NCBI GenBank assembly: GCA_043821445.1
Contig: JBDRCT010000037.1
Coordinates: 49,703 to 113,702, forward strand
From: Candidatus Omnitrophota bacterium
GTDB taxonomy: Bacteria > Omnitrophota > Omnitrophia > Omnitrophales > Aquincolibacteriaceae
Direction of reading: 5' to 3'
Length of the DNA stretch: 64,000 bases
Positions 11,993-40,889 of the stretch are shown piece after piece. The notes beneath the pieces were generated by a model that worked only from the letters and a program-made list of their open reading frames with translations, was not told where the DNA came from and ran no database searches. The translations under genes were made by a program, and so were the position numbers. Each line of letters opens with the position of its first letter. Positions within the stretch are counted from its first letter, which is position 1.

Positions 11993-12083
11993 TGTCAGAG
12001 TATCAGAGTGTCAAAGTATCAGTGTTGACTCGTTGATACTATGACACGAGTTTGTTCCTGGCGAACGGTGACACTTTGATACT
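11993..12083. repeat. MITE-like element, family 2 (GTGTCAGAGTATCAGAGTGTCA ... TGACACTTTGATACT), copy 1
   Basis: Near-identical ~90-bp element with internal inverted repeats also at 24963-25054 in the same orientation. The two copies bracket the signalling island. Confidence 0.8.
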
Positions 12084-12130
12084 TAAGAATTCAGGGTTTA
12101 GTGTTTCTGGTTGCGGGGTTCTTGGCACTG

Positions 12131-12493
12131 CTAACCGATATACTTCTTGATCGTGGCGACCAACTCGTCGGATTTGAACGGCTTGGTGAGACAGCCGGCG
12201 GCCCCACATGTCGTGAACTTATCCTCAAGAAATTTGGCATTCGCAGAGATCAAAATAATGGGGATGTTTTTTGTTGCTTCTTCTTTCGATAATATTTTGG
12301 CGACTTCATCGCCATTCATGACCGGCAGGAGAACGTCCATAAGGATCAGGTTCGGCATCTTTTGACGCGCGAGATCAAGGGCCTCCCGGCCATTCGCGGC
12401 CCCAAAGGTCTCATAACCTACATGCCTGAGCCTGAGCAACGTCACCAGAAGGAGATCGCTTTCATCATCCACCACGAGGATTTTTTTTGTCAT
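12131..12493 (-). CDS. Single-domain response regulator (CheY-like receiver)
   Basis: KILVVDDE ... LMDVLLPVMNGDEV ... K-P receiver signature. Confidence 0.85.
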   Translation of the reverse strand: MTKKILVVDDESDLLLVTLLRLRHVGYETFGAANGREALDLARQKMPNLILMDVLLPVMNGDEVAKILSKEEATKNIPIILISANAKFLEDKFTTCGAAGCLTKPFKSDELVATIKKYIG

Positions 12494-12505
12494 AGGAGGT
12501 TCATT

Positions 12506-15500
12506 TTACAACGGTAAAGTAAAATGAAAAGAACTTCCTTTTCCGACGGTGGATTCCGCCCATATTTTTCCATGATGCGCAAGAATGATCTTTTTGGAGA
12601 TCGCGAGTCCCAAACCCGTGCCGCCTTTCTGCCTGTTCATGAGACCGCCTACCTGCTCAAAGGGCTGAAAAAGTTTAGGGAGATCTTCGGGGAGAATCCC
12701 CTCTCCTGTGTCCTGTACCCTTACATGCACGACGTCCTTCTCCTTTTGGACGGCAAGAGTGATGTCGCCGTTTTGGGTGTGACGGATAGCATTATTCACC
12801 AGATTCGTTATGACCTGGACCAGTTTGTCCCGGTCGAATTTTATTTTAGGGAGCCCCTTCTCCATCTCCACCTTGAGATCTAAACCTTTTCCTTTCACTA
12901 AAACGCTCATGCTTTGCCGGATCTCCTCCATTACCTCATGGAGATCATTTTGCAAAATGAGATATTCCATTTTTCCCGATTCTATTTTCTGGAAATCCAG
13001 AACATTGCTGATCAAGCCGATCAACCGCTCGCTATTCTTTTTCGCTATCGCTAATACCTCCTTGAGTTCGTCATCGACCTTGTCCGGCAAACCTTCCAAA
13101 GCAATTTCCAAAGCTCCAAGGATCACCGCGATCGGACTTCTAAGCTCGTGAGAGATCATCGAGATAAACTTTGTTTTTGCCTCCGTAGCGGCCGCCATAA
13201 CCTCCACGCGGTTCTTTTCTGCTGCCAGTATTTTTTGCTCGGTGATATCCTCGGAAATACCCAACAGGTATTTCGTGACCCCATCGGCCCCTCGAACGCA
13301 GACCTTCCGTGTGTGAAGCAACCGCTCGCCTTTCTTGGCCGTTAAAATAGGCTCTTCGGGAATGTCCACCATGCCGGCCTTGCCATCGAGCACTTCGCGG
13401 TCCTTGGCCGCAAAGAACGCCGCCTGTTCGGGAGGAAAAAGATCCAGGTTGTTCTTGCCAAGCACTGCCTTGCGGTCATAGCCCAGGAGTTCCTCTCCCG
13501 CACGATTGAATATGATGAAACGCAGGTCTTTCGCCTCTTTCAGGAAGATCATGAGCGGAACATTTTCCACGACCGCCTCGGTGAGTTCTTTCGATTCCCT
13601 GAGTTCCTGCTCGGTCTTCATGCGATCGGTGATATCCCGGGCAATGCCCAGCACGCCAATGATTTTTTGGTGGGTATCAAAGAGAGGCATTTTTAAAGTA
13701 TCGAATATCCGGATCCCTTCCGGTGTGTTCGCCGGATCATGAGTATTATGGATCACGTTTCCGTTCAAGACGTCCCGGTCATCATTTTCAAACCCGCGTA
13801 TCCCCTTAAGCGGATTCCCATGAACAAGTTCCGGATCCCATCCGTTCTCGACGTCCGTATGCCCGATCATATCCTTCGGTGCCTTACCGACAGCTCTGGC
13901 GTAAGCCTTGTTGGCAAGTATCGTGCGCAGTTCAGTGTCTTTTGCAAAAATAAAGTCCGGCGTAGAATCAATGATCTCTTTTAATACTTCGCCTTGCTGT
14001 TTTAACTCTTCCTGTATTTTTTTCCGCTCGGTAATGTCCCAGAAAAAGCCGAGGAGCCCCGTTACGTGACCCGCCCCATCGCGGACAGGCACCTTGACGA
14101 TATGGACATAAGACTTCCGAGAGCCTGAGAGATAATCCCGGATCCCATGGTATTCCTCTTCCCGGTCTTCCGGCATCCCCGATTCCATGATCTGCTTATC
14201 TTCATCCCTTTGTTTTTCCGCCAGATGCGTAGGAAAAAAATCATAGTCTGTTTTTCCCACGATCTCTTCCGACCGGATCCCAAGGTCCTTTGCGTAATTC
14301 TCATTGCAGGATAAATAGACGGAGTTCTTGTCTTTAAGGAACACCTTGGAGGGCAAAGTCTCGATGAGTGTTCTGAACTGCAGTTCCTTGGCTTCTGCCA
14401 ATTCTTTTTTCAACCGCTTGCGCTCGGTGATGTCGCGGATATTGCACTGGATCACTTTGCGATGGTCCACCTGATAGACATTACTCACGAACTCCACTTC
14501 GATCTTCCGGCCATCTGCCGTCTCCAAGGGCAGATCTTCATAGCGGGCGTATTTTTCCTGTTGCAGTTTCAGGAAATTATTCTTATTCGCAATGATATCC
14601 TTGAGACATCCGACATCCCAGATCGCTTTTCCGAGGAATTCTTTGTGCGAATATCCTAACATCTCGATCAAATACGGGTTGGCATCCAGGATCATGCCTG
14701 TCCCGGCATCGAGGATCAAGATGCCGTCTTTCGCTGCCTCAAAAAGGCGACGGTATCGCGTTTCTGAATCTAGAAGCAATGCTTCCGTCCGTTTGCGCGC
14801 TTCAAGCTGTAGAGTGCGGTACCAAAAGGCCATTCCACCTGCAACACAAAGGATCAAGATAAGAACCGCGAGGGAAACCGCCACAGCACGCAAACGCACC
14901 TCTCCTCGGATCTCCGCTTCGTCTTCCTTAGTCACCAGGAACCAGTCCGTCCCGGGTATAGGCTGCAGATCTGCGACAACCGCCTTCCCAAGGTAATCCT
15001 TACCGTAGAAGATCCCTCTCCTCCCGAGGACCGCCTGAACGGCCGGTAACGTGTTCAGAGAAAGCAGAAAGCTCAGCCTCAGGGCTGTGTTTTTCCGGTG
15101 CCTGAGTTCGTTTAGAAAAAGCACTTCGTCACCGTCCCGGCGCACCAGCAAAGTCTCGCCGCTTTGGCTGGATGTCGGCCAGGCCTCGATCATCGGGAAA
15201 AGGTATTCTTGCACATTTGTAGTCAACACAAGAACCGCCAGTGTTTGGTTCGCATCGTCCCTGATAGCCGCTGCGATATCGATATGGATCCCACCGGAGA
15301 CAGTATAGTGCAACTGGCTCAGCACCGGACGACGTTCCGTTAAAGCCTTCTTCACCGCCACCCAGCTTTCTTTCTCCATCTCCACAGGCCGAGAAGCACC
15401 GGAAAGCAGGATCTTCCCGCCCGCGTCCACCAGAAGTGCCTGGAAATAAATGCCGAGTTCCTGTTCAAGCTGCAGGCGTTCGACCAGATCCTCTCTGTCG

Positions 15501-15820
15501 GCAAGCCGCTCCGGATCGCGAAGCCATTCGGCCAAGATTCTTTTAACCGCCGGAGAATCTGAGATCCTTCTCGCGTCATTGCTCCGCTCCTGGCACCAAC
15601 GCTGGATCTGTTTTATCTTGATCTGATTAATGGCGCCCAGCCCAGAGATCCTCAGTTGCCGGATCCGGTCCAGGTCGGAAAAATAATAAAACGAACCGCA
15701 CGCAATAAATAATACCGCGATCAGGAAGAACCATAGCATCATCTTGTGCCCGGGTACCCGGGCGGCCGCTTCCCAATGACCGTTGCTCGTTCTTGCCGGC
15801 TTGTCTGGACTCATATCCAC
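12506..15820 (-). CDS. Sensor histidine kinase: periplasmic sensor domain + TM + multiple PAS + HisKA + HATPase_c
   Basis: HELRSPIAVILG (H-box); GTGLGLAISKKIILAHHGKIWAESTVGKGSSFHFTLP (G2 box); repeated PAS blocks. The N-terminal sensor domain is paralogous to that of 22372-24927. Confidence 0.9.
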   Translation of the reverse strand: MDMSPDKPARTSNGHWEAAARVPGHKMMLWFFLIAVLFIACGSFYYFSDLDRIRQLRISGLGAINQIKIKQIQRWCQERSNDARRISDSPAVKRILAEWLRDPERLADREDLVERLQLEQELGIYFQALLVDAGGKILLSGASRPVEMEKESWVAVKKALTERRPVLSQLHYTVSGGIHIDIAAAIRDDANQTLAVLVLTTNVQEYLFPMIEAWPTSSQSGETLLVRRDGDEVLFLNELRHRKNTALRLSFLLSLNTLPAVQAVLGRRGIFYGKDYLGKAVVADLQPIPGTDWFLVTKEDEAEIRGEVRLRAVAVSLAVLILILCVAGGMAFWYRTLQLEARKRTEALLLDSETRYRRLFEAAKDGILILDAGTGMILDANPYLIEMLGYSHKEFLGKAIWDVGCLKDIIANKNNFLKLQQEKYARYEDLPLETADGRKIEVEFVSNVYQVDHRKVIQCNIRDITERKRLKKELAEAKELQFRTLIETLPSKVFLKDKNSVYLSCNENYAKDLGIRSEEIVGKTDYDFFPTHLAEKQRDEDKQIMESGMPEDREEEYHGIRDYLSGSRKSYVHIVKVPVRDGAGHVTGLLGFFWDITERKKIQEELKQQGEVLKEIIDSTPDFIFAKDTELRTILANKAYARAVGKAPKDMIGHTDVENGWDPELVHGNPLKGIRGFENDDRDVLNGNVIHNTHDPANTPEGIRIFDTLKMPLFDTHQKIIGVLGIARDITDRMKTEQELRESKELTEAVVENVPLMIFLKEAKDLRFIIFNRAGEELLGYDRKAVLGKNNLDLFPPEQAAFFAAKDREVLDGKAGMVDIPEEPILTAKKGERLLHTRKVCVRGADGVTKYLLGISEDITEQKILAAEKNRVEVMAAATEAKTKFISMISHELRSPIAVILGALEIALEGLPDKVDDELKEVLAIAKKNSERLIGLISNVLDFQKIESGKMEYLILQNDLHEVMEEIRQSMSVLVKGKGLDLKVEMEKGLPKIKFDRDKLVQVITNLVNNAIRHTQNGDITLAVQKEKDVVHVRVQDTGEGILPEDLPKLFQPFEQVGGLMNRQKGGTGLGLAISKKIILAHHGKIWAESTVGKGSSFHFTLPL

Positions 15821-15879
15821 TCCGTCAGATGGACGATACGTTAAAATCTATGAAACCCCAAATCCCTGCCTGACCGGCC

Positions 15880-16030
15880 GGCAGGCGAAACCCTGAACTC
15901 GACAAACCCTAAATCCAAAACTCTAAATAAATCCAAAACCTAAAATCCAAAATTCGACAAATTTTATACACTAAATATTAAATCTAAAATTCCAAACCCT
16001 AAATCCAAAAAGTTTCGGTTTTCAAAAAGT
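15880..16030. promoter_or_regulatory. AT-rich degenerate (C)TAAATCCAAAA repeat tract upstream of the 12506-15820 kinase
   Basis: Repeated ccctaaatccaaaa, aaatccaaaacctaaaatccaaaattcgacaaa and ctaaatattaaatctaaaattccaaaccctaaatccaaaaag. A similar tract lies at 21240-21330. Confidence 0.4.
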
Positions 16031-16053
16031 GTGCGCTCGTCGTCGATCGTTCG

Positions 16054-16440
16054 TCAAACACCTCTTGGACCCAGACGTTCTTCAATGCAATCCATCAGTT
16101 GTTTGATGTCTACCGGTTTAGCCAGAAAGAACTGGCCGCCTATTTCTCCTCCGGTTCGCGCTAATTCTTGAGCACTCACAGCTCCTGTTAAGAAAACGAT
16201 GGGCACTTGAGCCAAAGCAGGGTCCGATCTGATCTCAAAAGCTAAAGCCGACCCTTCCATTTCAGGCATCATGATATCGATGAAAATAATCTGGGGTTTG
16301 AAATCACGGGCTTTTTGTAATGCTAATTTAGCGTTTTGCTCCACCGCGACCTCGTAGCCGCCTTTCTGTTCCAAAACCCTCTTAAACATGCGAAGCAGCG
16401 CCTCTTCGTCGTCGACGAAAAGAATCCTCTTTTTTTCCAT
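16054..16440 (-). CDS. Single-domain response regulator (receiver)
   Basis: ILFVDDEEALL ... FIDIMMPEMEGSALAF ... receiver fold. Stop is 1 nt from the upstream kinase start. Confidence 0.85.
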   Translation of the reverse strand: MEKKRILFVDDEEALLRMFKRVLEQKGGYEVAVEQNAKLALQKARDFKPQIIFIDIMMPEMEGSALAFEIRSDPALAQVPIVFLTGAVSAQELARTGGEIGGQFFLAKPVDIKQLMDCIEERLGPRGV

Positions 16441-19424
16441 TAAACACCCCCCTTTTTCCGTTCATCCAATATTTCGTTAACTTTTTTCAACAGAGAGAGC
16501 GAAGAAAATGGCTTGGGAATGAGCCCGGCATCAGGACCCAGCACATCAAACCCATCCAAAGCATCCCCCATATAGCCGGACATAAAAAGCACTTTAAGAT
16601 CCGGTTGGATTTTTTTGATCCTCTCCGCGGTTTCTCTGCCGCCTATCTGAGGCATAATAACGTCCGTTAACAAAAGATCGACTTTTACATGCTTGCGTGA
16701 AAGCTCCTCCAACAGGTTAATGGCATCGACGCCGCTTTGCGCTACGAAAAGAGTATAACCTTGTCCACTTAAGATCTTGGAGCAAAACTGGCGGATCATC
16801 GGCTCATCTTCGACCAATAGGATGGTCTCCGATCTTTGAGGCAGGATCTCCTTCTCCTTCTCCTTCTCCTTCTCCTTCTCCTTCTCCTTCTCCTTCTCCT
16901 TCTCCTTCTCCTTCTCCTTCTCCTTCTCCTTCTCCTTCTCCTTTTCGCTGATATCTAATTCTGTGGCAGAAGGCAATAAGACTTTAAATGCGGTCCCCTT
17001 TCCCGGCTCACTTTGAACAGAAATGTGACCCTCCATCCGCTTAATGATCCCGTAACACGTCGCAAGACCCAGCCCTGTCCCTTTATCTTTAGATTTCGTG
17101 GTAAAAAAGGGTTCGAACAGATGGCGTTTAGTCTCTTCATCTATACCAACGCCTGTGTCAGTCACAGACAGTTGGACGTACGCTCCGGGCTTTAGGCCTG
17201 GATCGTTCATGACATCCGCTTCATTCAGAATAATATTTGTGATTTCAAAAACTATTTTTCCTTTGCCCGACATAGCATCCCGCGCATTCACCGCGAGATT
17301 CATGATGACTTGTTCCATCTGGTCCGGATCGATCTTAGTCCTCTTCAATAAACTATCTGTGAACATTACGACTTCAATGCCTGCGCCCAGAAGACGCTTG
17401 AGCATCTGGCTCATGTCCATCACGAGAGCGCTCAGATCGACGAGAATGGGTTTCACCGGTTGGCGGCGCGAAAAAGCGAGAAGTTGATTCGTAAGATTCT
17501 GCGCGCGCTTGCCGGCTTTGAAAATTTCCTCTAGATCATCATGAAGCGGATTATCAGGAGCCAGGGATCCCAGTGTCAGGTCAGCATAGCCATTGATCAC
17601 GGTCAGGAGATTATTAAAATCATGGGCAATGCCACCGGCCAGTATGCCGACGGCTTTCATCTTTTCGGCGTGGGCAATCTGGGCCTGAACCCTTTCTAAT
17701 TCCGCCAAGTTCTTTTCCAATCTTTCCCTGATCTGGTTGTTATCAGCCAGCATGCTGGTCATGATCTCGCGGGATTTCATCTCTTCCTTCAAAACCTGAT
17801 TCATCTTCTCTTCCGCCCGCTTGCGCTCGGTGATATCATGGGCTACGTACACCGCCCCCAGGATCTTTTCGCAATGCTCGCCTTTTTCTTTAAATGACGG
17901 GTAATCGTCCTTTGGCTCTTTTTGAGGACAGTCTTTTTCCCTTAGTATTGCTCTGCTTAAAATAACCGGCATTTTCTTTCCATCCTTAGCTTTGTAATTG
18001 ATCTCATAATCCTTCGAAACTCCCCCCTTGAGAAGCTTCTTAAGTTTTGCTCCCTGAAGTGGAATTTCTTCTTCTGAAAATAAAAGACTTATATCTTTCC
18101 CGATCAGTTCTTTTTTCTCATAGCCTAAAAGCGCGTATGTCGCTTTATTAACAATTGAAATTTTTGAATCGGGATCAATGACTACCAGGCTATCGACCAT
18201 GTTCTCCATGATATTATCGAGATAATCCCTTGAAACGGTGGTCTTCCCCAACTGCCTGGTCATCGCATTGAAAGCATCGGCCAGGTCTTCGATTTCATCC
18301 CCGGTTTTCAAGTCTATTGTGTGATCCCATTCTCCCTGAGAGAAACGCTGTATCCCATCCCGGATCTTTTGTAGCGGAGAAATAAAAACGGCTTTGATCC
18401 TCTTTTGCAGGCTCCTTATGAGCAAAAGAGAAAAAAATATTATCATAATGAAGCCCACGGCAGAGATCACATAGAACGGAAAAAAGATCTCCTTCATCTC
18501 TTGCGTCACAACAGTGATCCAATGGATATCATTCCTCTTAAGATATTGGCTATTAACCTCTGCCGCGGTTACAAGAGAATTTCCATCCTGCTTGCCTAGA
18601 TTCAAAATCAAAAAATCACGCTTGCTGTTCAAGAGCTCCCCTATCATAATGCTCGTCAGCGGCGATTGGCTCATCGGATCCATGCCGGCGTGATAAATCA
18701 CCATTCCTTGTTCATTAAGCAGCGCCGAACGGCCGGTTCTGCCGAATTTATACCGTTTCATCATCTTAAAAAATACATCAATATCTACTATGGCTTTTGC
18801 AATACCGATGATCCGGCCCTTCTCATCCTTGATCGGAACCGCAATAGCGCTGCTTATTTTCCCGCTGGATTCATCTATCGTAACTTCGCCAAAATAATTA
18901 TCGCCTTTGCCGTTATCATAGGCGCGTTGCCACCACCGTTCATCCGCCTGATAGAAATCACTCGTTTTGTTTGACGCAGCCACCAATCCGCCATATTGGT
19001 CCGTAAGAAATATTTCCGCTATAACATCATCGCCTTCCGCCAAGACCTTCAGCCTCTGACCTATGCGGGAACCCAGCCATTCCTGTAGCTGGCTATCCGC
19101 CATAGCGGCCCACTGCTTATCCATGTGCGCCATATACTCCTGGATGGCTTTGGGTTCCAAATCTTTATAGCGCAGGTTCGCTTCTTGAACCGCATCGCGC
19201 CACCACTGACTTTCCACGTAAAATCTTATTTCGTCCACTTGACGATCAATGAGACTCGCGATGAATCCCGAGAATAACCGCGCATCTTGTTTTTGCCTGC
19301 TGCCGATGGTGTCAAAGCGCATTTTCCAGACGCTGCCGAAACCTGCGATCAGCAGACATGCGACCGCTATGCCGATACTGAAGACTATGAATCGTGAAAT
19401 TTTTTTACTGACACTTGCTTTCAT
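16440..19424 (-). CDS. Hybrid sensor histidine kinase: double-Cache-like sensor + HAMP + PAS + HisKA + HATPase_c + (EK)16 linker + receiver
   Basis: [16 protein letters not shown] (H-box); [37 protein letters not shown]; a long EKEKEK... run; C-terminal [13 protein letters not shown] receiver. Confidence 0.9.
16848..16943 (-). repeat. Perfect hexanucleotide SSR (CTCCTT)16 on the + strand = (AAGGAG)16 on the coding strand, encoding the (EK)16 linker
   Basis: 16 uninterrupted 6-bp units counted directly. The unit is the Shine-Dalgarno consensus on the mRNA. Confidence 0.95.
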
Positions 19425-19430
19425 CGTAGT

Positions 19431-20343
19431 TCAAGTCCCTTGATCTTTGAGCTTTTTCTCCAGATCTGCCACCTGCTCTTTCAATTCCAAGATCCGCTCT
19501 TCCCTGCCGATGCTTGCTTTATAAAAAACTTCCAGTTCCTGCAGGCGTTTCTGCAATTCCTTCTCGGCTTTCTTATACCCCGTGATATCCTCCACCATCT
19601 CGATGACGGCGACAACCTTGCCATGCTCGTCTTTGATCGGAGAAGCGACGATCCTGTAATTAAACACTTGGCCGCCCATAGGCGTTTCCGTCACATCTTC
19701 GTGCACGAGTCCGTCTTTCAATGTCTTGGCTGTCGGGCAATAAGAACAAATTTCATCTCTCGGCGGTTGGTTAAAGGCGCGGTAACAAATAGGTTTGTCT
19801 TCAAGATCAATGCGCGGATTCCATTTCTTCATTTGCTTGTTTAAAGACAAAATTTGCATATCCGGAGAGACCACTGCCACGCCGATACTGATGTTGTCCA
19901 GAATGCCTCGAAGCTTTTCCTCACTTTCACGCAAGGCATTATCCGCCTTTTTGTGGTCGGTGCGCTCCTGCCTCTCTTTAAGTGCGCGTTGGATGGCCGG
20001 AACAAGTCTGGAAAGCTTGTCTTTCATGACGTAATCCACCGCCCCGGACTTCATCATCTCGACGGCGATGTCCTCGCCGATGGTTCCCGAAACAACGATG
20101 AAAGGTGTTTCCGGAAAGCGCTCCTTGACGATATCGAGAGCCTTGAAAGCATCGAATGACGGCATCTTATAGTCGCAGAGGATCATGTCAGGAACAAATT
20201 CGCCAAGCGCCGAAAGAAACTCCTCCTTCGACTGCACCCATTTCACGGTATGAGTGAAGTCCCTCTTGCCGAGCTCTCTTTTGATGAGCTCGGCATCAAC
20301 GGCGGAATCTTCTACGGCGAGGATATGTATTTTTTGAGCCATA
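19431..20343 (-). CDS. Response regulator: receiver + PAS + coiled-coil C-terminus
   Basis: GGAGG RBS then ATG (MAQKIHILAVEDSAVD...). The ORF extends further 5' in frame but lacks an RBS there. PAS block after the receiver. Confidence 0.8.
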
Positions 20344-20368
20344 AAACCTCCCAACCAGCCTTCAGTCG

Positions 20369-20734
20369 TCAGCTGGCAGCTTTCAGTTTCTTTTTGAAGC
20401 CCGTTATCATTGCCGACAATTCGTCCGATCTTTCGAGAAGAGGATCCGATTCGTTTGACCTCAGGTACTCTAATCTTTTTGCGATCTCTAACCCGCACAT
20501 GACTTCGTGATTCGACCTATGTGCAATACTCAGGAATCTGTTAAATTCGTTATCAGAACCCGCGGCGCTACCTTCCGCGATATTTAAAGCCACAGAAGTT
20601 GCCGCTTGCCTTAATTGACTGGTTAAGCCATAAACTTCTTTTGCCGGGAATTTTTCCGTGACTCGATAGATCTCTTCAATGAGATCCATTGATTTGTTCC
20701 AAATCTCTAATTTCCTAAATTTCTGATTTTTCAC
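20369..20734 (-). CDS. Four-helix-bundle protein (TIGR02436, 23S rRNA IVS-protein family)
   Basis: KFPAKEVYGLTSQLRQAATSVALNIAEGS signature typical of the family. A paralogue lies at 21907-22260. Confidence 0.75.
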   Translation of the reverse strand: MKNQKFRKLEIWNKSMDLIEEIYRVTEKFPAKEVYGLTSQLRQAATSVALNIAEGSAAGSDNEFNRFLSIAHRSNHEVMCGLEIAKRLEYLRSNESDPLLERSDELSAMITGFKKKLKAAS

Positions 20735-20840
20735 TTTCGAGCCCTCTGCTTTCAGCTATCAGTTTTTAGCCTAAAAGCTTTTGCCGATGGCTGTCGGCTG
20801 AAGGCTGATCGCTGACGTCTGTAAGCTCACGCCCCACATC

Positions 20841-21227
20841 CTACGTCCCACGCTCCGGTGCATACTTCTCCAGGACCACTTTAAGCACTTCCGGATCGAT
20901 GGGTTTCTCCACATATTCATCTGCGCCGATCATCTTAGAAAACTTCTCATTCAGGTCCGGATAACCGGTCAAGATAACGACTTTCTCAGCCCTGTGGTTT
21001 TTCTTGATATGTTCGGCTATCTCCAGACCCGTAGGCCCCGGCATGTTCTCGTCCAAAAAAAGGATGTCGTAAGCTTTCTCTTTGATCGACCGCATGGCCT
21101 CTTCCCCGTCCAGAACATACTTCGCAGACGATACTTTGGTCTTCATAAACGGGCGCATCGCCCTTTGGAAAAGCTCCATATCCGTGGGAGAATCTTCGGC
21201 GACCAGGATCCGCATTTTCTTATTCAT
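20841..21227 (-). CDS. Single-domain response regulator (receiver)
   Basis: MRILVAEDSPTDMELF ... LFLDENMPGPTGLEI ... receiver fold. Confidence 0.85.
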   Translation of the reverse strand: MNKKMRILVAEDSPTDMELFQRAMRPFMKTKVSSAKYVLDGEEAMRSIKEKAYDILFLDENMPGPTGLEIAEHIKKNHRAEKVVILTGYPDLNEKFSKMIGADEYVEKPIDPEVLKVVLEKYAPERGT

Positions 21228-21239
21228 ATCTTCTCCTAA

Positions 21240-21330
21240 TGAACATTTTAAAATACTAAATCCGAAATTCTAAACAAATTTAAAACCCAAATTTCAAATT
21301 CAAACTTTTTTCAGATCTCGTCTTTTGAAT
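21240..21330. promoter_or_regulatory. AT-rich TAAATCC/AAAATT degenerate repeat tract upstream of the 20841-21227 receiver gene
   Basis: tactaaatccgaaattctaaacaaatttaaaacccaaatttcaaattcaaa. Same flavour as 15880-16030. Confidence 0.35.
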
Positions 21331-21401
21331 TTATTTTGACTTTAGAGTTAAAAAAATGAGCCCTTTCATTTTTGAACAGCGGACAGTTTATTGATAAAAA
21401 C

Positions 21402-21845
21402 TCAGTACCAGCCAAGTTCGGCGATCATCGTGCTGAACTTTTCAAAATCGACCGGCTTCACGATGTAGCTGTTCGCTCCGAGCTCATAACTTGCGACCAA
21501 GTCGCTTTCTTCCTGAGAAGACGTCAGGATCACGACTGGGATGGACCGTGTCCTCTCATCCGCCTTGATCCTTTTCAGGACCTCCTTACCTTCCACCCTG
21601 GGAAGCTTCAGGTCGAGAATGATGATCTTAGGCGGCACCCTGATGTCCCGGTCCGAATAGATCCCTTTGCAAAATACGAAATCGAGCGCCGCGGCTCCGT
21701 CTGTGATCACATGGATTTTGTTTGTGAGATTCTTCTTTTTGAATGCCCGAAGTATAAGCTCGACGTCGTCCGGATTATCTTCTACCAACAGAATCTCGAC
21801 CAGTTCACCGTTTGTCATGCGAATCTCCTTTTTTCCATAGTTCAC
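21402..21845 (-). CDS. Single-domain response regulator (receiver)
   Basis: ILLVEDNPDDVELILRAF ... IIILDLKLPRVEGKEVL ... receiver fold. Confidence 0.85.
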   Translation of the reverse strand: MNYGKKEIRMTNGELVEILLVEDNPDDVELILRAFKKKNLTNKIHVITDGAAALDFVFCKGIYSDRDIRVPPKIIILDLKLPRVEGKEVLKRIKADERTRSIPVVILTSSQEESDLVASYELGANSYIVKPVDFEKFSTMIAELGWY

Positions 21846-21906
21846 AGTTCGTTGTTATTGGTTCATTGATCATAGTTCAGCGTTGGTTGTTCATCGTTAA
21901 GTGTGT

Positions 21907-22260
21907 TCAGCAAATCAAAGCCCTCTTCAAGCCACTCAGCATCTTTGAAAGATCTGTTAGCCTATTTTCTAGATCTTTATATTTTTCTATTTGAAAATAA
22001 TTTTGTCTGGAAGCTATTTGCAAAATAGCTAGGCATTCATAAATGGAGCCACGAGACATGTCTATAAAGCGTGCAAAATCTTTCTTACTCCTCGCAGATC
22101 CCTCCGATATATTAGCCGCAATAGATACAGCCGCTCTTCTTAGTTGGCTGGTTAATCCGAACTGTTCATCTTTAGGAAAAGCCCTTGTTAAAACATAAAT
22201 TTCGTTCATAAACTCTAACGCTTTTTGGTAAACCTCTAACTTTTCGAATCCAAACCCCAT
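21907..22260 (-). CDS. Four-helix-bundle protein (TIGR02436 family), paralogue 2
   Basis: AFPKDEQFGLTSQLRRAAVSIAANISEGSAR signature. Flanked on both sides by GTTCA/TGAAC direct-repeat tracts. Confidence 0.75.
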   Translation of the reverse strand: MGFGFEKLEVYQKALEFMNEIYVLTRAFPKDEQFGLTSQLRRAAVSIAANISEGSARSKKDFARFIDMSRGSIYECLAILQIASRQNYFQIEKYKDLENRLTDLSKMLSGLKRALIC

Positions 22261-22371
22261 ATTTTCGCCTTCTTGCCTTGTTCCGTGTTTTGTGTTCGTG
22301 GTTCATTGTAACTACGAACTATGAACTACTCACTATTCACACAATAAACAACGAACTACCGACAATGAACG

Positions 22372-24927
22372 TCACCTCGGAAGCGTGAAATAAAATGTTG
22401 CCCCTTGACCGACCTCACCCTCCGCCCACACCCTGCCTCCGTGGCGCAAGACGGCACTTTTAACGATCGCAAGACCTATCCCGGTGCCTTTGAACTCGTC
22501 CTGCGTATGAATTCTCTGGAAGATCCCAAAAAGCTTATCTGCGTACTTCATGTCGAATCCCACCCCGTTATCCTTGACGTAATAAACACGTTCTCCCTCC
22601 TTATCGTAACTCCCGATCTCGATCACGGCCTTTTTTTGGCGAGCGGTGAATTTTATCGCATTCAAAATGAGGTTCGTGAATATTTGCCTGACAAGCATCA
22701 AGTCCGCTCGGACGGCCGGTAACGGCTTTACGACCACGTCAATGGCCCTGTCGGCAGGGGCCCCCACTTTCAACTCTTGCTCTATAGAACATACAAGCGT
22801 CGTCAAGTCGATATCGACCAACTGAATCGCGATTCTTCCAAAGTGAGCGAGTTTGAGAAGATCCTCGATCATCATTCCCATATTTCTCACGTTGTCGTTG
22901 ATAACGCCGATCACGCGCCGGCCATTATCATCGAGCTTAGAAGCATAATCCTCGAAGAGAATACCCGCGAACCCCCCTATCGCTCTGAGCGGGGCCTTCA
23001 GATCGTGCGCGACCGAATAGCTAAAAGCATCCAGCTCTTTGACCGCTGCGGTAAGATCCGCCGTGCGCAATCTGACGCGATCTTCAAGCTCTATATTGAT
23101 CTGCCGGATCTTCTCCTCCATCTTCTTACGGTCGGTGATATCACGGGCAAAACTGTTGATCTCCTTGACCTCGCCGGAGTCATCGAAATACAAGTTGATA
23201 TCCCAAAGCATATCAAAAACCTGGCCGCTCTTATGGACTTGACGATTCTCAAAGCTGATCCGTTTCTCTTTGCCCGTGACCCAACCTTCAAAAGCCTTCT
23301 TTGTCCTTTCTCGGTCATCCGGATGAATAAAGTCAAACGCCGACCGGCCGGCGCATTCTTTGGGTTTGATGCCGAAAAATCTTTCCGCGCTATGATTCAC
23401 AAAGGAAAAACGGCCTTCTTTGTCCACAATGGTGATCAGATCGTCGGTCCCTTCCACTAGATCGCGGTAGCGTTCATTGGCCAGGCGTAAGGTCTCTTCC
23501 GTCCGTTTGCGTTCGGTGATGTCGGTCAAGATACAATGGGTTTGCCTGAACGTCCCGTCCGGCTTATATCCGATACGCCCCTCAAAGACAATGAACCGTC
23601 TGTCGCCGTTCTTATGAAGCATTTGAAATTCGGAATGTATTTTCCCGTCTTTTTTAAAAAGGGGAAAACGTTCGCGAAAGGCGTCCACGAATTCAGGGGC
23701 CAGAAAATCACCGAACCACTTCCCCACGACTTCTTCGCGACGGTAACCAAGCGTCTCGATCCATATTTGATTCACATCAAGAAAGCGGCCCTCTTCATCC
23801 AGGGACTGGTAACCCACCGGCGCGTATTCGAAAAGAGAGCGATAGCGCGCCTCGTTCTCCCCCAGTATCTTATCCGACCGTGCTTTTTCTGCCCTGCGCC
23901 GGATCCGGTAATGGTAGGCGATCGCTCCTGCGACACCCAGGATCATCATGAAAACAAGCCCAAAGATCACAAAAGCGCGAAAGCGAAGTTCCGCTAGTAT
24001 TTCCGCAGTATCTACCTTGCTCACGAGATGCCAGGGGGTCCCCGGGACCGGACGAAGATCAGCCAACACCTCCGTCCCGCGATAATCCGAACCGAGGAAT
24101 GCGCCTATCCTGCCCTTCGCTGCCTGAACCGCCGGGAGATCGGTCTTAGAAAATGGAAAGCTTAAAACAAGGGCTGTATTCTCGTGGTGCCTCAAATCGT
24201 TCAAGAAGATCGCACTATCCCCGTTTCTCCGGATCAGAAGCGTTTCCGCACTGCGATTCGGTACCGGCCAACTCTGGATCATCGGAAAAAGGTATTCTTC
24301 CGCATAGGAAGAAAGGACGGCCACGGCCAGCACTTTTCCTGTAGTGTCCAACACAGAGGCTGCGATATTTTGATAGATCTTTCCGGATGCTGTTCGGGTC
24401 AATTCGCCTATGACCGGCACAGGACTTTTCAAAGCAAGATCCACCACCTCCCAGTCCTCTGTTCGTATTTCAACGGGATCAGGCTCGGAAAAAAGAACAC
24501 GGTGGGCGGAATCCGTTATGAATGCCCGAAAATAAAAATCAGACTTAACCTCGACCTCCAACCTCTGTTGCAAAATCTTTTTAACATCAGCGTCGTCAGG
24601 CCCGGAGATCCATTGCTCGAACACAAAAGCCAGGGCTGAAGATCCGAAAAGGCGGGAGATGTCGTTTATCCGCTCTTTTCGCCAACGCAGGATCTGATCC
24701 ACCTTCATTTGTCCGATGGCCGCGAGCTCATTGGATTTTTCCGTTTTGATCCGGCTCGCCTCGGCCTCGTAATAAAGGAAACCGAAAACGACGAGGATGG
24801 CCGCCACCAAACAGAAGAGCGCGACTCCGCGCCACGGAAGAACGAAAGACCTTTCACCGGTCGCGGCCGGGAGCTCCGCTCCTTCGCGGTCCCCTTTACT
24901 TTTTTCCGTCTTTTTTTCCAGGTTCAT
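22372..24927 (-). CDS. Sensor histidine kinase: periplasmic sensor + TM + 3 PAS + HisKA + HATPase_c
   Basis: AHDLKAPLRAIGGFAGIL H-box; GTGIGLAIVKSAVLRHGGRVWAEGEVGQGATFYFTLP. N-terminal sensor paralogous to 12506-15820 (LPAVQA..G..YRG..V.ADL.P.PGT.W.LV.K). Confidence 0.9.
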   Translation of the reverse strand: MNLEKKTEKSKGDREGAELPAATGERSFVLPWRGVALFCLVAAILVVFGFLYYEAEASRIKTEKSNELAAIGQMKVDQILRWRKERINDISRLFGSSALAFVFEQWISGPDDADVKKILQQRLEVEVKSDFYFRAFITDSAHRVLFSEPDPVEIRTEDWEVVDLALKSPVPVIGELTRTASGKIYQNIAASVLDTTGKVLAVAVLSSYAEEYLFPMIQSWPVPNRSAETLLIRRNGDSAIFLNDLRHHENTALVLSFPFSKTDLPAVQAAKGRIGAFLGSDYRGTEVLADLRPVPGTPWHLVSKVDTAEILAELRFRAFVIFGLVFMMILGVAGAIAYHYRIRRRAEKARSDKILGENEARYRSLFEYAPVGYQSLDEEGRFLDVNQIWIETLGYRREEVVGKWFGDFLAPEFVDAFRERFPLFKKDGKIHSEFQMLHKNGDRRFIVFEGRIGYKPDGTFRQTHCILTDITERKRTEETLRLANERYRDLVEGTDDLITIVDKEGRFSFVNHSAERFFGIKPKECAGRSAFDFIHPDDRERTKKAFEGWVTGKEKRISFENRQVHKSGQVFDMLWDINLYFDDSGEVKEINSFARDITDRKKMEEKIRQINIELEDRVRLRTADLTAAVKELDAFSYSVAHDLKAPLRAIGGFAGILFEDYASKLDDNGRRVIGVINDNVRNMGMMIEDLLKLAHFGRIAIQLVDIDLTTLVCSIEQELKVGAPADRAIDVVVKPLPAVRADLMLVRQIFTNLILNAIKFTARQKKAVIEIGSYDKEGERVYYVKDNGVGFDMKYADKLFGIFQRIHTQDEFKGTGIGLAIVKSAVLRHGGRVWAEGEVGQGATFYFTLPR

Positions 24928-24962
24928 ATGAGGTCGGAGTCCAAGGTTCCCAGTGCTCTGAG

Positions 24963-25054
24963 GTGTCAGAGTATCAGAGTGTCAGGGGGTCAGAGTTGAC
25001 ACGCTGACACTATGACACTCGTTCGCCTCTGGCGAACGATGACACTTTGATACT
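24963..25054. repeat. MITE-like element, family 2, copy 2
   Basis: gtgtcagagtatcagagtgtcagggggtcagagttgacacgctgacactatgacactcgttcgcctctggcgaacgatgacactttgatact. Direct copy of 11993-12083. Confidence 0.8.
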
Positions 25055-25145
25055 CTTGCGCTTTGGCACTTAAAAATTTGAGTTTGCTTTTTGATGTTCT
25101 TCAGGCGGGCCGCCCCGCAATAGCGGGCGAGCCTCATCCTGTTCT

Positions 25146-26795
25146 TCAGGCGGGTTCTCCCCAGAGGAACCCCTGTCCGTACGGAACGCCTAATTCTTTG
25201 AGCGTCTCCAGATCCTCCCGGCTCTCGATCCCCTCGGCAATGATCCGGGCATGAAGACTTTCCACAACGGCCAGAAGCCTCCGGAGCATTTCTTTTTGGT
25301 TTTTATCATGGCTGATATTCTGTACAAGCCGCTTGTCGAGCTTGATCACGTCGGGCTGAAGGAGGATCAGGCTCTCAAGACAGCTGCGGCCGAAACCCAC
25401 GTCGTCGATCGCGACGCCGATCTTTCTTTTTTTGAGTTCCTGGACCACGCGGACAAGATAAGAGGGATCGCCCAGGATCTGTTGCTCGCTGACTTCGACG
25501 CAATAAGCGCCGCAAAGTCTGGCCGGCGGAAAGAGCCTTGAAAATTGTTCGCTCCGGAGTCCCGCCATGGTCGACGGGAAAAGATTCACATGTTTTTCGG
25601 ACGCCGGAGAGACGCCTTGCGCGGCCACGAGCGCGATCTCGAGACACCGCTCGTCCACCATGGAAAGGATGTTATTCTCCATGCTGAAACCGAAGAATTC
25701 GTCCGGCATTTCAAAGCCGCCGATATCGGTGCGTGTAAGAAACTCATAGCCGACCGTTTTTTCCGTGAAAAGATCCAGGATCGGCTGTTTGACCGACCGG
25801 AAACAGGTACCGGAGCGGAGCGTGTCCGCCACACTGTCCGATCTCGGTTCCCAACCTTCCCCCGCGCTCACCTTATTTTTTCCCGATTGTTTACTTTTCG
25901 CCAAGGCCGCATGGGTCTCCTCCAAGAGCGAATCGATCGAAACCATTCGTTTATTTACACTCATGACGCCCAGACTGGCCGTGACCTTGACCGTCTCTCC
26001 TCCGGCCACCACGAAAGGCGTTTGGCTGATCGCGACCCTTATCCGCTCGGAAAAGTGGATGCCCTCGGCCAAACGGGTGTTCGGCAGAAGGACAATGAAC
26101 TCATCCCCGCCTACGCGGGATACGTAATCGGCGGCGCGCACCGTGCGCTTCAGGATCTTTGAGAGCTCCTGAAGAACGATGTCGCCGACCGCGTGGCCGA
26201 ACGTGTCGTTGATGGGTTTGAAGTTATCCAGGTCCAGAAGGATCACGGAAAGATTCGTGCCCTCGCGGCCTGAGATCTCCATTTCGCGGGAAAGCATCCG
26301 TTGGAGACCGCGACGATTGAGCAACTGGGTTAGGGGATCCAGAAAGGAAAGTTTCTCGAGGTGCTCGTTCAGCTCTTCGATCCGTTGTTTCTGATGTTGC
26401 CGTTCCAAAGCATACGAGAGGATCCTGGCGAGCATTCCCGCGCGGACTTCCCCCTTCACCACATAATCCTGGGCCCCTTTTTTGACCGCTTCAAGCGATA
26501 GGGCCTCGTCATCGGTGCCGCTTAAAATGACGCAGGCGATCCCGGGATAAGCCCCGGCGATCTTCTCGAAAGTGGCCAGGCCCTGGCTGTCGGGAAGTCC
26601 CAGATCAAGAAGGATCAGCTGGAATGTTTCTTCCCCGAGCATTTTGAGAGCGGACTCAAGCGTGTGCGCCGTTTCGACCTCAAATGGGGTTCGTTTTTCG
26701 CTCCGTAGGGAGATCTGAGAAATCCTCGTAAAATCAGTGTCGTCGTCCACCAGGAGCATCCTTACCGGAGATGCCGTACGCCTTTCTTCCTCCAA
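25146..26795 (-). CDS. Response regulator with GGDEF and EAL domains (c-di-GMP turnover)
   Basis: N-terminal receiver (MLLVDDDTDF); RVGGDEFIVLL GGDEF motif; C-terminal EAL-type domain (YEFLTRTD ..., ESLILLQPDVIKLD). Confidence 0.88.
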   Translation of the reverse strand: MEEERRTASPVRMLLVDDDTDFTRISQISLRSEKRTPFEVETAHTLESALKMLGEETFQLILLDLGLPDSQGLATFEKIAGAYPGIACVILSGTDDEALSLEAVKKGAQDYVVKGEVRAGMLARILSYALERQHQKQRIEELNEHLEKLSFLDPLTQLLNRRGLQRMLSREMEISGREGTNLSVILLDLDNFKPINDTFGHAVGDIVLQELSKILKRTVRAADYVSRVGGDEFIVLLPNTRLAEGIHFSERIRVAISQTPFVVAGGETVKVTASLGVMSVNKRMVSIDSLLEETHAALAKSKQSGKNKVSAGEGWEPRSDSVADTLRSGTCFRSVKQPILDLFTEKTVGYEFLTRTDIGGFEMPDEFFGFSMENNILSMVDERCLEIALVAAQGVSPASEKHVNLFPSTMAGLRSEQFSRLFPPARLCGAYCVEVSEQQILGDPSYLVRVVQELKKRKIGVAIDDVGFGRSCLESLILLQPDVIKLDKRLVQNISHDKNQKEMLRRLLAVVESLHARIIAEGIESREDLETLKELGVPYGQGFLWGEPA

Positions 26796-36846: not shown

Positions 36847-37112
36847 TTTCGCTCTCCTTCTTTTTGTTTGTTGGATATAAAGGCCGTTAAATTTTCGATC
36901 GTTTCCAGGTTTCCGGGGTGAATATCGCCCTTCTTGATCTTGATATGAAACCGGGCCTCGAGCGCGTGGACAAAAGGAAAGATGCCGAAAGAATCGACGA
37001 TCCCCCGTAAAAAAAGCGACTCACCGGCGGAAAAATCCCTTGGCACTTTAATGCCGTGATTATTCTTTGCCAGGATGTCCCTGACCGCGTTCTCGATTTC
37101 TTCGCGTTGCAT
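36843..37112 (-). CDS. Small carrier protein, DltC/ACP-like (89 aa)
   Basis: GIVDSFGIFPFVHALE resembles the DltC phosphopantetheine attachment site (GIIDSFQTV). Size and helix pattern fit a carrier protein. Confidence 0.6.
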   Translation of the reverse strand: MQREEIENAVRDILAKNNHGIKVPRDFSAGESLFLRGIVDSFGIFPFVHALEARFHIKIKKGDIHPGNLETIENLTAFISNKQKEGERK

Positions 37113-37160
37113 TGGTTCTATTCTATAAGCCCTTATGGATATCGAGCAATCCTTTTTGTA

Positions 37161-38918: not shown

Positions 38919-39023
38919 GCGGTATCAGGCCCCTGGTCCAACAGGTTCATTATAAAAAACGTCCGTTCGAGAACGTCAGTGAACTTACCGATCATTTGTG
39001 GATATCGAGCGATCCTTTTTCTG

Positions 39024-40784: not shown

Positions 40785-40889
40785 GCGGTATCAGGCCCCT
40801 GGGCTAACAGGTTTATTATAAAAAACGTCCGTTCGAGAACGTCAGTGAACTTACCGATCATTTGTGGATATCGAGCGATCCTTTTTCTG

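What the first reader, a model, noticed from the sequence alone, without database searches (positions are those of the whole stretch)
16848..16943. Perfect (AAGGAG)16 coding repeat: an (EK)16 linker made of sixteen consecutive Shine-Dalgarno hexamers
Sixteen uninterrupted hexamers link the HATPase domain to the C-terminal receiver of the hybrid kinase. Hexamer repeats expand and contract without frameshifting, so the linker length (and perhaps phosphotransfer geometry) is probably variable in the population. On the mRNA, the repeat is the SD consensus iterated 16 times. Internal SD-like sequences are known to cause ribosome pausing. This region may therefore also throttle translation of the receiver domain or act as an internal ribosome recruitment site.
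Basis: partly seen in the sequence, partly recalled or inferred. Interest (0 to 1): 0.55.

Follow-up and report, generated by a model that had tools for sequence, protein, structure and literature searches.

The report
Expanded EK microsatellite in kinase linker
A perfect 16-copy six-base DNA stutter has more than doubled the flexible tether between the kinase and receiver halves of a bacterial sensor protein; it is a real, probably young and unstable microsatellite, but there is little support for the idea that it works as a ribosome-binding signal.

Summary
Window 16848-16943 reads (AAGGAG)16 on the minus strand. It lies in frame in a 994-aa hybrid histidine kinase (16440-19424, minus) and encodes (EK)16E, residues 827-859, between HATPase_c and the receiver domain.

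It is best read as a young coding microsatellite made by replication slippage. Every unit uses GAG and AAG, although the gene and the window prefer GAA and AAA. It is the only simple repeat of 15 bp or more in 64 kb.

In 248 sampled relatives of the CckA-like kinase core, the same linker is 20-24 residues in all but four, and at most 39. Here it is 47, so about 25 residues were added. Catalytic and phospho-acceptor residues on both sides are intact.

No conspecific allele could be retrieved, so population variability is likely but untested. Indirect support comes from a (GAA)n tract in the PAS domain of related kinases, with n = 3, 6, 9 and 11.

The Shine-Dalgarno (SD) reading is weak. The host does use AAGGAG as an SD, but no ATG, GTG or TTG follows within 30 nt, and the two near-cognate codons are predicted to be base-paired. 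SD-induced pausing is contested in the literature. The same repeat is common in viral contigs, giant-virus ones included.

Verdict: ordinary kind, unusual size.

The parts
16848..16943 (-). Perfect (AAGGAG)16 hexanucleotide microsatellite (the + strand reads CTCCTT)
   Evidence: TRF 16847-16943, 16.2 copies, 100% matches. Exact regex match at 16848-16943 on the minus strand.
16848..16946 (-). Codons for (EK)16E, residues 827-859: GAA AAG (GAG AAG)15 GAG
   Evidence: Translations. Repeat codon counts are GAG 16, AAG 16, GAA 1.
16830..16970 (-). Whole interdomain linker, residues 819-865 (47 aa): SATELDIS-(EK)16E-ILPQRS
   Evidence: Anchored on the family-conserved LP (end of the CA domain) and ET (before receiver strand 1) in alignments A1 and A2. 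Relatives have 20-24 aa here, rarely 25-39.
16440..19424 (-). Hybrid sensor histidine kinase gene, 994 aa: dCache_1, TM, HAMP, PAS, HisKA, HATPase_c, EK linker, REC
   Evidence: ORF, translation, Pfam.
16968..17330 (-). HATPase_c (CA) domain, residues 699-819
   Evidence: Pfam PF02518, E = 2.6e-23. Best PDB fold match is CckA DHp-CA 5idj at 40% identity.
17460..17642 (-). HisKA (DHp) domain, residues 595-655, with phospho-His H601 (AHDFNNLL)
   Evidence: Pfam PF00512. H is invariant in 129 aligned sequences.
16479..16823 (-). Fused receiver (REC) domain, residues 868-982. D873, D921 (acceptor), S949 and K971 are intact, and the FMSGY motif is present.
   Evidence: Pfam PF00072, E = 2.6e-16. 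Invariant and near-invariant columns; residues checked. The FxSGY 'FATGUY' motif of CckA-type intermediary receivers is described in PMC9981736.
16842..16847 (-). In-frame near-cognate codons ATC (I860) and CTG (L861) directly 3' of the repeat. These are the only possible starts that would give a complete receiver.
   Evidence: Codon list. Predicted unpaired probability is about 0-0.05 for UCCU, which pairs with the last repeat units.
18066..18074 (-). (GAA)3 tract (E451-E453) in the PAS domain. The homologous tract is expanded in relatives.
   Evidence: Window (GAA)3; L020 (GAA)6GAG; L035 (GAA)9; L033/L034 (GAA)11.
16054..16440 (-). Stand-alone receiver gene. Its ATG overlaps the kinase stop codon (TAATG).
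   Evidence: sequence; Pfam Response_reg, E = 8e-22.
12131..26795 (-). Signalling gene cluster around the kinase: REC; dCache-PAS-HK; REC; this hybrid HK; REC-PAS; REC; dCache-PAS-HK; REC-GGDEF-EAL
   Evidence: Pfam scans.

Best explanation
This is a young coding microsatellite. A short E/K-rich stretch in the CA-to-receiver tether of a CckA-like hybrid histidine kinase was expanded by replication slippage to 16 perfect GAGAAG units. That added about 25 residues to a linker that is otherwise held near 22.

The expansion is tolerated for two reasons. The site is an unstructured tether. And strictly alternating Glu-Lys is a charge-balanced, very soluble, non-sticky sequence that behaves as an expanded, helix-prone chain.

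The expected functional effect is a modest one on the protein. A longer tether lowers the effective concentration of the fused receiver at the phospho-histidine by roughly 3-fold, and it loosens geometric constraints. That could shift phosphoryl flow slightly towards the stand-alone receivers encoded next door.

The repeat's identity with the Shine-Dalgarno hexamer is a by-product of the GAG/AAG codons, not a selected function.

Shown here: the repeat, its reading frame, intact domains on both sides, the uniform codons, and the outlier linker length. Inferred: the slippage origin, copy-number instability, and the size of the effect on phosphotransfer.
For: (1) The units are identical at the DNA level, including all synonymous sites: 16 GAG and 16 AAG. 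Outside the repeat the gene uses GAA:GAG = 40:24 and AAA:AAG = 45:36, and other genes of the window 523:381 and 485:431. Independent codon choice would give this pattern with a probability of about 1e-11.
(2) The linker is an outlier. It is 20-24 residues in 244 of 248 family members sampled in two searches, with exceptions of 25, 28, 29 and 39. Here it is 47. The non-repeat flanks SATELDIS and ILPQRS still align with the family's linker ends.
(3) None of those 248 relatives has an EK run of three or more units. One unrelated Lachnospiraceae hybrid kinase has (EK)4 with mixed codons at the same position (L007).
(4) H601, N713, D873, D921, S949 and K971 are all intact, so the gene is not decaying.
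(5) Related kinases carry a perfect (GAA)n tract at one homologous PAS-domain site, with n = 3, 6, 9 and 11. This shows that in-frame purine SSRs expand and are tolerated in this lineage.
(6) Perfect (GAGAAG) runs of six or more units are a recurrent SSR type. At least 120 viral contigs carry one, with a median length of 51 bp and a maximum of 130 bp. They are read as EK/KE in 45 of 123 runs and as EG/GE in 70.
(7) AlphaFold2 models residues 822-853 as one helix, with pLDDT 77-85 falling to 52. CD of (EKEK)5 shows that helicity falls as pH rises from 3 and eventually reaches zero; the pattern allows only i,i+3 ion pairs, while longer chains are more helical (PMC11094733). Strictly alternating (Glu-Lys)25 (kappa = 0) is an expanded chain (PMC7503639).
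(8) SSR indel rates of 1e-6 to 1e-2 per generation and in-frame behaviour of 3- and 6-nt units are described in PMC3013739.
Against: No second allele or close ortholog was available, so recency, instability and neutrality are inferred and not observed. The tight conservation of a roughly 22-residue linker in the family argues that length matters, so a 47-residue linker may not be neutral. It could be mildly deleterious, or selected. The AlphaFold helix has no alignment depth in the repeat columns. The copy number depends on a single assembly.
Confidence: 0.65

Rival explanations
1. Adaptive 'tuning knob'. The repeat number is kept variable in the population, and each allele sets a different tether length. 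As a flexible chain or a roughly 5-nm EK helix, the tether would tune intramolecular His-to-Asp transfer against transfer to the free receivers of the cluster.
For: The unit of 6 is in frame, and the run is long and perfect, so it should be mutable (PMC3013739). Linker length is strongly constrained in the family, which implies that length affects function. The cluster encodes three stand-alone receivers plus REC-PAS and REC-GGDEF-EAL proteins that could compete for the phosphoryl group. AlphaFold2 predicts a continuous 32-residue helix. [quoted passage not shown]
Against: No polymorphism data could be obtained. There is only one SSR in 64 kb, so there is no sign of a contingency-locus strategy. 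None of 248 relatives uses a repeat here. A 2-fold change in a flexible tether is expected to change effective concentration only a few-fold.
Confidence: 0.2
2. Translational element. The 16 tandem SD hexamers bind the anti-SD of 16S rRNA. They would either slow elongating ribosomes before the receiver is made, or recruit 30S subunits to start a separate receiver protein.
For: AAGGAG is a real SD in this genome (genes at 7948, 36846(-) and 60586; 9 of 46 starts have an SD match of 5 nt or more, against 6.7% background). Each unit can pair with the canonical anti-SD at -7.2 to -8.8 kcal/mol, and the purine tract is more accessible than its flanks (unpaired probability 0.65 against 0.39-0.46). 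The in-frame near-cognate codons ATC and CTG follow directly and would yield a complete receiver.
Against: There is no ATG, GTG or TTG within 30 nt. TTG L870 and ATG M876 would delete receiver strand 1. ATC and CTG are predicted to be paired with the last repeat units. SD-induced pausing is attributed largely to footprint-length bias, and ORF-internal SD motifs are reported to be inconsequential (PMC6377232, PMC6107199). E. coli ribosomes lacking SD pairing still select the correct starts and ignore internal AUGs (PMC7043885). The same repeat occurs in giant-virus contigs and is more often read in the EG frame, so its recurrence does not depend on SD function. A stand-alone receiver gene already follows the kinase.
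Confidence: 0.05
3. Assembly or sequencing artefact. The copy number is wrong (collapsed or inflated), or the repeat is a false join between two genes.
For: The repeat rests on one assembly. Perfect low-complexity repeats often break or distort short-read assemblies: 15 of 123 (GAGAAG)n runs in viral contigs sit at a contig end. The only independent contig from the same strain (Logan SRR27458548, 100% identical over 1049 bp) covers 12049-13097 and not the repeat.
Against: The reading frame is continuous. Both flanks align to the conserved ends of the family's linker, and the HisKA-HATPase-REC order is the family's native architecture, so a chimeric join is very unlikely. At 97 bp the run is shorter than the largest k-mers of common metagenome assemblers and shorter than 150-nt reads, so it can be spanned (inference).
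Confidence: 0.07

Closest known systems
Coding simple sequence repeats (microsatellites) of prokaryotes with 3- or 6-nt units, arising by slipped-strand mispairing
   Same: Head-to-tail perfect units. The unit length is a multiple of three, so insertions and deletions add or remove amino acids without a frameshift. The site is a tolerant region of the protein (PMC3013739).
   Different: At 16 perfect hexamers (97 bp) it is long for a bacterial genome. It is the only SSR in 64 kb, and polymorphism has not been demonstrated here.
CckA-type hybrid histidine kinases (HisKA-HATPase_c-linker-REC, intermediary receiver with an FxSGY motif)
   Same: The kinase core is 45-50% identical to many members. 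The best solved fold is CckA DHp-CA 5idj at 40% identity. The H, N and G boxes, the receiver D/D/S/K residues and FMSGY are all present (PMC9981736).
   Different: The linker is 47 aa instead of 20-24. The sensor half (dCache-HAMP-PAS) is that of non-hybrid Omnitrophota-type kinases (49-69% identity), so the protein is a mosaic.
ER/K single alpha-helix (SAH) spacers
   Same: Made only of Glu and Lys, more than 30 residues long, predicted as one isolated helix joining two domains.
   Different: SAH domains rely on i,i+4 E-K salt bridges. Strict alternation puts like charges at i,i+4 and leaves only i,i+3 pairs. CD of (EKEK)5 shows its helicity falling towards zero as pH rises from 3 (PMC11094733).
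Dipeptide-repeat spacers of bacterial proteins, such as the Glu-Pro/Lys-Pro region of TonB and the Ser-Asp repeats of staphylococcal Clf/Sdr proteins (from my own knowledge, not tested here)
   Same: A dipeptide repeat acts as a spacer between functional modules, with length variation by repeat number.
   Different: Those spacers are extracytoplasmic stalks encoded by degenerate repeats that are conserved across species. This one is cytoplasmic, perfect at the DNA level and lineage-specific.
Phase-variable contingency loci (Haemophilus, Neisseria, Helicobacter)
   Same: A slippage-prone SSR inside an ORF.
   Different: Those switch genes on and off by frameshift and occur as many loci per genome. 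Here the unit is in frame, and no other SSR is present in the window.

Membership tests
Coding microsatellite (slipped-strand SSR) | Tandem head-to-tail copies of a 1-6 nt unit | tested here: met
   Period 6, 16.2 copies, 100% matches.
Coding microsatellite (slipped-strand SSR) | Identity at the DNA level, including synonymous positions, indicating duplication of DNA and not selection for the peptide | tested here: met
   All 16 GAG and 16 AAG, against a background preference for GAA and AAA.
Coding microsatellite (slipped-strand SSR) | Copy-number polymorphism among strains or reads | not testable with these tools
   No conspecific sequence covering the repeat was found. The one same-strain Logan contig lies 4 kb away.
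CckA-like hybrid histidine kinase core | HisKA with phospho-His, HATPase_c N/G boxes, C-terminal receiver with acidic pocket, acceptor Asp, Ser/Thr and Lys | tested here: met
   Pfam. H601, N713, D873, D921, S949 and K971 sit at invariant or near-invariant columns. Fold match to CckA 5idj.
CckA-like hybrid histidine kinase core | FxSGY ('FATGUY') motif of intermediary receivers | tested here: met
   FMSGY at residues 947-951. The motif is described in PMC9981736.
CckA-like hybrid histidine kinase core | CA-to-REC linker of about 22 residues (empirical feature of the sampled family) | tested here: not met
   47 residues, against 20-24 in 244 of 248 relatives, maximum 39.
Phase-variable contingency locus | Repeat unit not divisible by three (or promoter spacing), giving an ON/OFF switch | tested here: not met
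   The unit is 6 nt, in frame inside the ORF.
Phase-variable contingency locus | Several SSR loci per genome | tested here: not met
   No other perfect SSR of 15 bp or more in the 64-kb window. The rest of the genome was not available.
ER/K single alpha-helix (SAH) domain | Long E/K/R-only segment predicted or shown to be an isolated helix | tested here: inconclusive
   AlphaFold2 gives a helix at 822-853 with pLDDT 77-85, then 52, but there is no alignment depth in these columns. The helicity of (EKEK)5 falls towards zero as pH rises from 3 (PMC11094733).
ER/K single alpha-helix (SAH) domain | Opposite charges at i,i+4 (E4K4-like blocks) | tested here: not met
   Strict alternation puts like charges at i,i+4 (sequence; argument in PMC11094733).
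Internal ribosome-binding site | Sequence complementary to the anti-SD, with an SD type used by the host | tested here: met
   Duplex energy of -7.2 to -8.8 kcal/mol with the canonical 16S tail. AAGGAG precedes three ATG starts in the window. The host 16S rRNA itself is not in the window.
Internal ribosome-binding site | Canonical start codon 4-12 nt downstream, in an accessible context, giving a meaningful product | tested here: not met
   No ATG, GTG or TTG within 30 nt. Only ATC and CTG are present, and both are predicted to be paired. TTG L870 and ATG M876 would truncate the receiver.
SD-mediated elongation pause | Increased ribosome dwell time at the motif | not testable with these tools
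   This needs ribosome profiling or toeprinting. The phenomenon itself is disputed (PMC6377232, PMC6107199, PMC5100845).

The most novel reading that the evidence does not exclude
The EK array could be a slippage-adjustable molecular ruler. Alleles with different copy numbers would coexist, and the tether length would set how much phosphoryl flux stays on the fused CckA-type receiver and how much goes to the free receivers of this multi-kinase, c-di-GMP-linked cluster. That would give the population a heritable but reversible rheostat on a signalling branch point. A still more exotic variant is that the 16 SD copies drive low-level initiation at the in-frame ATC or CTG, producing a free receiver.
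Probability: 0.1. Interest if true: 0.6.

Novelty: new member of a known kind. Interest (0 to 1): 0.3.

Why it matters
If the repeat number really varies, this locus is a natural experiment on a basic question in two-component signalling: how much does the length of the tether between kinase and fused receiver matter? The family holds that tether near 22 residues, and this protein has 47. It is also a clean test for the disputed idea that internal Shine-Dalgarno sequences slow ribosomes, because it places 16 consecutive copies inside one ORF of an SD-using organism. As it stands it is an unusually long but otherwise ordinary coding microsatellite, and it marks a place where short-read assemblies may misreport length.

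Tried and rejected
(1) Finding alleles.
- Exact-protein look-ups of the kinase and of two neighbouring receiver genes found nothing.
- The receiver at 12131-12493 hit one 1049-bp Logan contig (SRR27458548). It is 100% identical to window 12049-13097 but does not reach the repeat.
- The genome-contig scan was wasted.
- The metagenome scan with the EK run deleted found only the 69% relative L020 and CckA-like kinases at 55% identity or less.

(2) Searching for other hybrid kinases with EK linkers. A 140-aa query centred on the linker was used; by a typing slip it carried one EK too many. None of the top 120 hits has such a linker.

(3) PDB sequence search with the linker gave only insignificant low-complexity matches.

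(4) Rfam and tRNA scans of the window found nothing, so the host's anti-SD could not be read directly.

(5) H-DNA or triplex formation was considered. The tract is all purine on one strand, but GAGAAG is not a mirror repeat (its reverse, GAAGAG, is not a rotation of it). A perfect intramolecular triplex is therefore not expected, and this was not pursued.

(6) An antisense ORF was considered. No ORF of 60 aa or more on the + strand overlaps the repeat.

(7) A recent gene fusion with a downstream receiver was considered, because relatives such as P0003 have separate receiver genes after the kinase. It was rejected because the linker flanks and the receiver belong to the natively fused CckA-like family.
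Full report
**Observation.** The window contains, at 16847-16943, a perfect period-6 array of 16.2 copies with 100% matches and TRF score 194. The next array in the window scores 63. The gene lies on the minus strand, which reads (AAGGAG)16 at exactly 16848-16943. The + strand as given reads CTCCTT. In the reading frame of ORF 16440-19424(-), 994 aa, the codons are GAA AAG (GAG AAG)15 GAG. This gives (EK)16E at residues 827-859, coordinates 16848-16946. No other perfect repeat of unit 2-6 and 15 bp or more exists in the 64 kb, and the chance expectation is about 1e-50.

**The gene.** Pfam gives dCache_1 (43-252), HAMP (348-392), PAS (402-495), HisKA (595-655), HATPase_c (699-819) and Response_reg (868-982).

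The protein is a mosaic. Residues 1 to about 590 are 49-69% identical to non-hybrid kinases of metagenomic origin, and many of the weaker hits are labelled Candidatus Omnitrophota. From the His box onwards it is a CckA-like HisKA-HATPase-REC core, 45-50% identical to thousands of proteins from many phyla. Its best solved fold match is CckA DHp-CA (5idj, 40% identity).

H601, N713, D873, the acceptor D921, S949 and K971 are all in place. The receiver also carries FMSGY, the FxSGY motif of CckA-type intermediary receivers (PMC9981736). The gene is intact on both sides of the repeat.

It sits in a minus-strand signalling cluster (12131-26795). The cluster holds two more dCache-PAS kinases, three stand-alone receivers, a REC-PAS protein and a REC-GGDEF-EAL protein.

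**Origin of the repeat.** All 16 Glu codons of the perfect units are GAG and all 16 Lys codons are AAG. The rest of the gene uses GAA:GAG = 40:24 and AAA:AAG = 45:36, and other genes of the window use 523:381 and 485:431. Independent codon choice would give such uniformity with a probability near 1e-11. The array was therefore made by duplication of DNA, that is by slippage, and recently enough that no substitution has interrupted it.

One degenerate unit (GAA AAG) flanks it on the 5' side. The non-repeat parts of the linker, SATELDIS and ILPQRS, align with the ends of the family's linker (for example RVDEPLEE...EELPRGS in P0121). This leaves room for roughly 3-4 ancestral EK units.

**How unusual the linker is.** I measured the segment between the conserved LP at the end of the CA domain and the ET before receiver strand 1.
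- In 128 relatives it is 20-29 residues, with median 22 and only two above 24.
- In a second, independent set of 120 it is 20-24 in 118, with outliers of 28 and 39.
- Here it is 47.
- None of the 248 has an EK run of three or more units.
- One unrelated Lachnospiraceae hybrid kinase (L007) has (EK)4 with mixed codons at the same position.

The family thus keeps this tether at a nearly fixed length, and this protein has more than doubled it.

**Physical nature of (EK)16.** AlphaFold2, run with the 129-sequence alignment, gives mean pLDDT 88. It models residues 822-853 as one uninterrupted helix, with pLDDT 77-85 falling to 52 at the C-terminal end of the repeat. There is no alignment depth in those columns, so this is essentially a single-sequence guess.

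Published CD on (EKEK)5 shows helicity that is highest at pH 3 and falls as pH rises, eventually reaching zero. That pattern allows only i,i+3 ion pairs and has like charges at i,i+4, although longer chains are more helical (PMC11094733). Strictly alternating (Glu-Lys)25 is the kappa = 0 reference polyampholyte with expanded conformations (PMC7503639).

Either way the segment is soluble, non-sticky and extended: about 5 nm as a helix, and about 4.5 nm rms as a coil for the whole 47-residue linker, against about 3 nm for 22 residues. These lengths are my estimates. That implies roughly a 3-fold lower effective concentration of the receiver at the phospho-histidine. The effect is modest and plausibly tolerated.

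**Is it variable?** This could not be tested directly.
- The exact protein is not on record.
- No allele or close ortholog appears among 5.8 billion proteins or in the metagenome scan.
- The genome scan was saturated by the EKEKEKEK pattern.
- The same strain is present in Logan run SRR27458548: a 1049-bp contig is 100% identical to window 12049-13097. That contig does not reach the repeat.

Indirect evidence favours instability. SSR indel rates are 1e-6 to 1e-2 per generation, and 3- or 6-nt units change length in frame (PMC3013739). At one homologous site in the PAS domain (LLFS-En-IP), this kinase lineage carries a perfect (GAA)n tract with n = 3 in the window, 6 in L020, 9 in L035 and 11 in L033/L034. 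In-frame purine microsatellites therefore do expand and persist in these genes.

**The Shine-Dalgarno reading.** The host does use this SD. AAGGAG precedes the ATGs at 7948(+), 36846(-) and 60586(+), and GGAGGT precedes 9532. In all, 9 of 46 crude gene starts have an SD match of 5 nt or more, against 6.7% at random in-frame positions. Each unit can pair with the canonical 16S tail at -7.2 to -8.8 kcal/mol, compared with -16.7 for a full 10-nt SD. The purine tract is more accessible than its flanks, with unpaired probability 0.65 against 0.39-0.46.

Several points count against a function.
- There is no ATG, GTG or TTG within 30 nt of the repeat's end. The first canonical in-frame starts, TTG L870 and ATG M876, would remove receiver strand 1 or more.
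- Only the near-cognate ATC (I860) and CTG (L861) could give a whole receiver. The AUCCUG there is predicted to pair with the last repeat units, with unpaired probability about 0-0.05.
- SD-driven pausing is disputed. Later profiling work ascribes the signal to longer footprints at G-rich sites and to size selection (PMC6377232). A comparative study concludes that ORF-internal SD motifs may be inconsequential (PMC6107199). Another study finds expression-dependent depletion (PMC5100845).
- Start-site choice in E. coli persists without SD pairing, and internal AUGs are ignored (PMC7043885).
Run lengths have a median of 51 bp and reach 130 bp. They are read as EK/KE in 45, EG/GE in 70 and RR in 8 of 123 runs. 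The motif's recurrence therefore does not depend on SD function or even on the EK frame.

**Artefact check.** A chimeric join is unlikely. The frame is continuous, both flanks match the family's linker ends, and the domain order is the family's own. The copy number cannot be verified. Such repeats do break assemblies: 15 of 123 viral runs lie at contig ends. At 97 bp, however, the run is short enough to be spanned by 150-nt reads and by large k-mers; this is an inference.

**Verdict.** This is a real, unusually long but otherwise ordinary coding microsatellite. It has expanded a normally length-constrained tether in a CckA-like hybrid kinase. The most likely account (0.65) is a recent, tolerated slippage expansion with at most a modest effect on phosphotransfer. 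An adaptive, population-variable tether (0.2) is possible and easy to test with reads. A translational role (0.05) and an artefact (0.07) are unlikely. Interest is 0.3, and the novelty class is a new member of a known kind.

Noticed in passing
window 18066-18074 (-); L020 3245-3265; L035 990-1017; L033 2850-2883; L034 1493-1526: Related kinases carry a perfect (GAA)n microsatellite at one homologous PAS-domain site (LLFS-En-IP). n = 3 in the window, 6 (+GAG) in L020, 9 in L035 and 11 in L033/L034. A poly-Glu insertion of variable length therefore sits inside a PAS domain.
   Followed up: partly
window 37161-43952 (-): Four tandem paralogous ORFs (585, 586, 585 and 399 aa) are 72-76% identical to each other and have no Pfam hit. 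They have an N-terminal hydrophobic segment, near-identical upstream sequences, and an 11-nt TTTTCCGTCAA repeat in the spacers. They lie in a low-GC block (45-47%, against 54-57% in the flanks). Function unknown.
   Followed up: partly
window 16440-19424 (-), junction near residue 590: The kinase is a mosaic. The dCache-HAMP-PAS sensor and S-helix are 49-69% identical to non-hybrid Omnitrophota-type kinases, whose own DHp is of the HEVKNPL type. From the His box (AHDFNNLL) onwards it is a CckA-like hybrid core, with no relative above about 50% identity. This suggests a domain swap at the DHp boundary.
   Followed up: partly
window 12000-24000 and 36000-46000: GC content drops to 45-51% in the signalling cluster and in the tandem-paralog block, against 54-57% elsewhere. 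GC skew is negative over most of the window.
   Followed up: no
window 12049-13097; L036: A 1049-bp Logan contig from run SRR27458548 is 100% identical to this stretch. The same strain was therefore sequenced in that public run, which is where read-level repeat counts could be obtained.
   Followed up: yes
window 12131-26795 (-): This is a dense two-component cluster: three dCache kinases, three single-domain receivers, REC-PAS, and REC-GGDEF-EAL. No recognisable Hpt protein was found, although the hybrid kinase's receiver is of the intermediary (FxSGY) type. The 165-aa ORF at 21372-21869(+) has no Pfam hit.
   Followed up: no
Several are giant-virus bins, runs reach 130 bp, and 15 of 123 sit at a contig end. 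The EG/GE reading frame is more frequent than EK.
   Followed up: partly
L007 2022-2045 (Lachnospiraceae MAG RUG12831): An unrelated 1073-aa hybrid kinase has (EK)4 with mixed codons (GAA AAA GAG AAG GAA AAG GAA AAG) in its HATPase-to-receiver linker. This is the kind of short seed from which an array like the one studied could expand.
   Followed up: no
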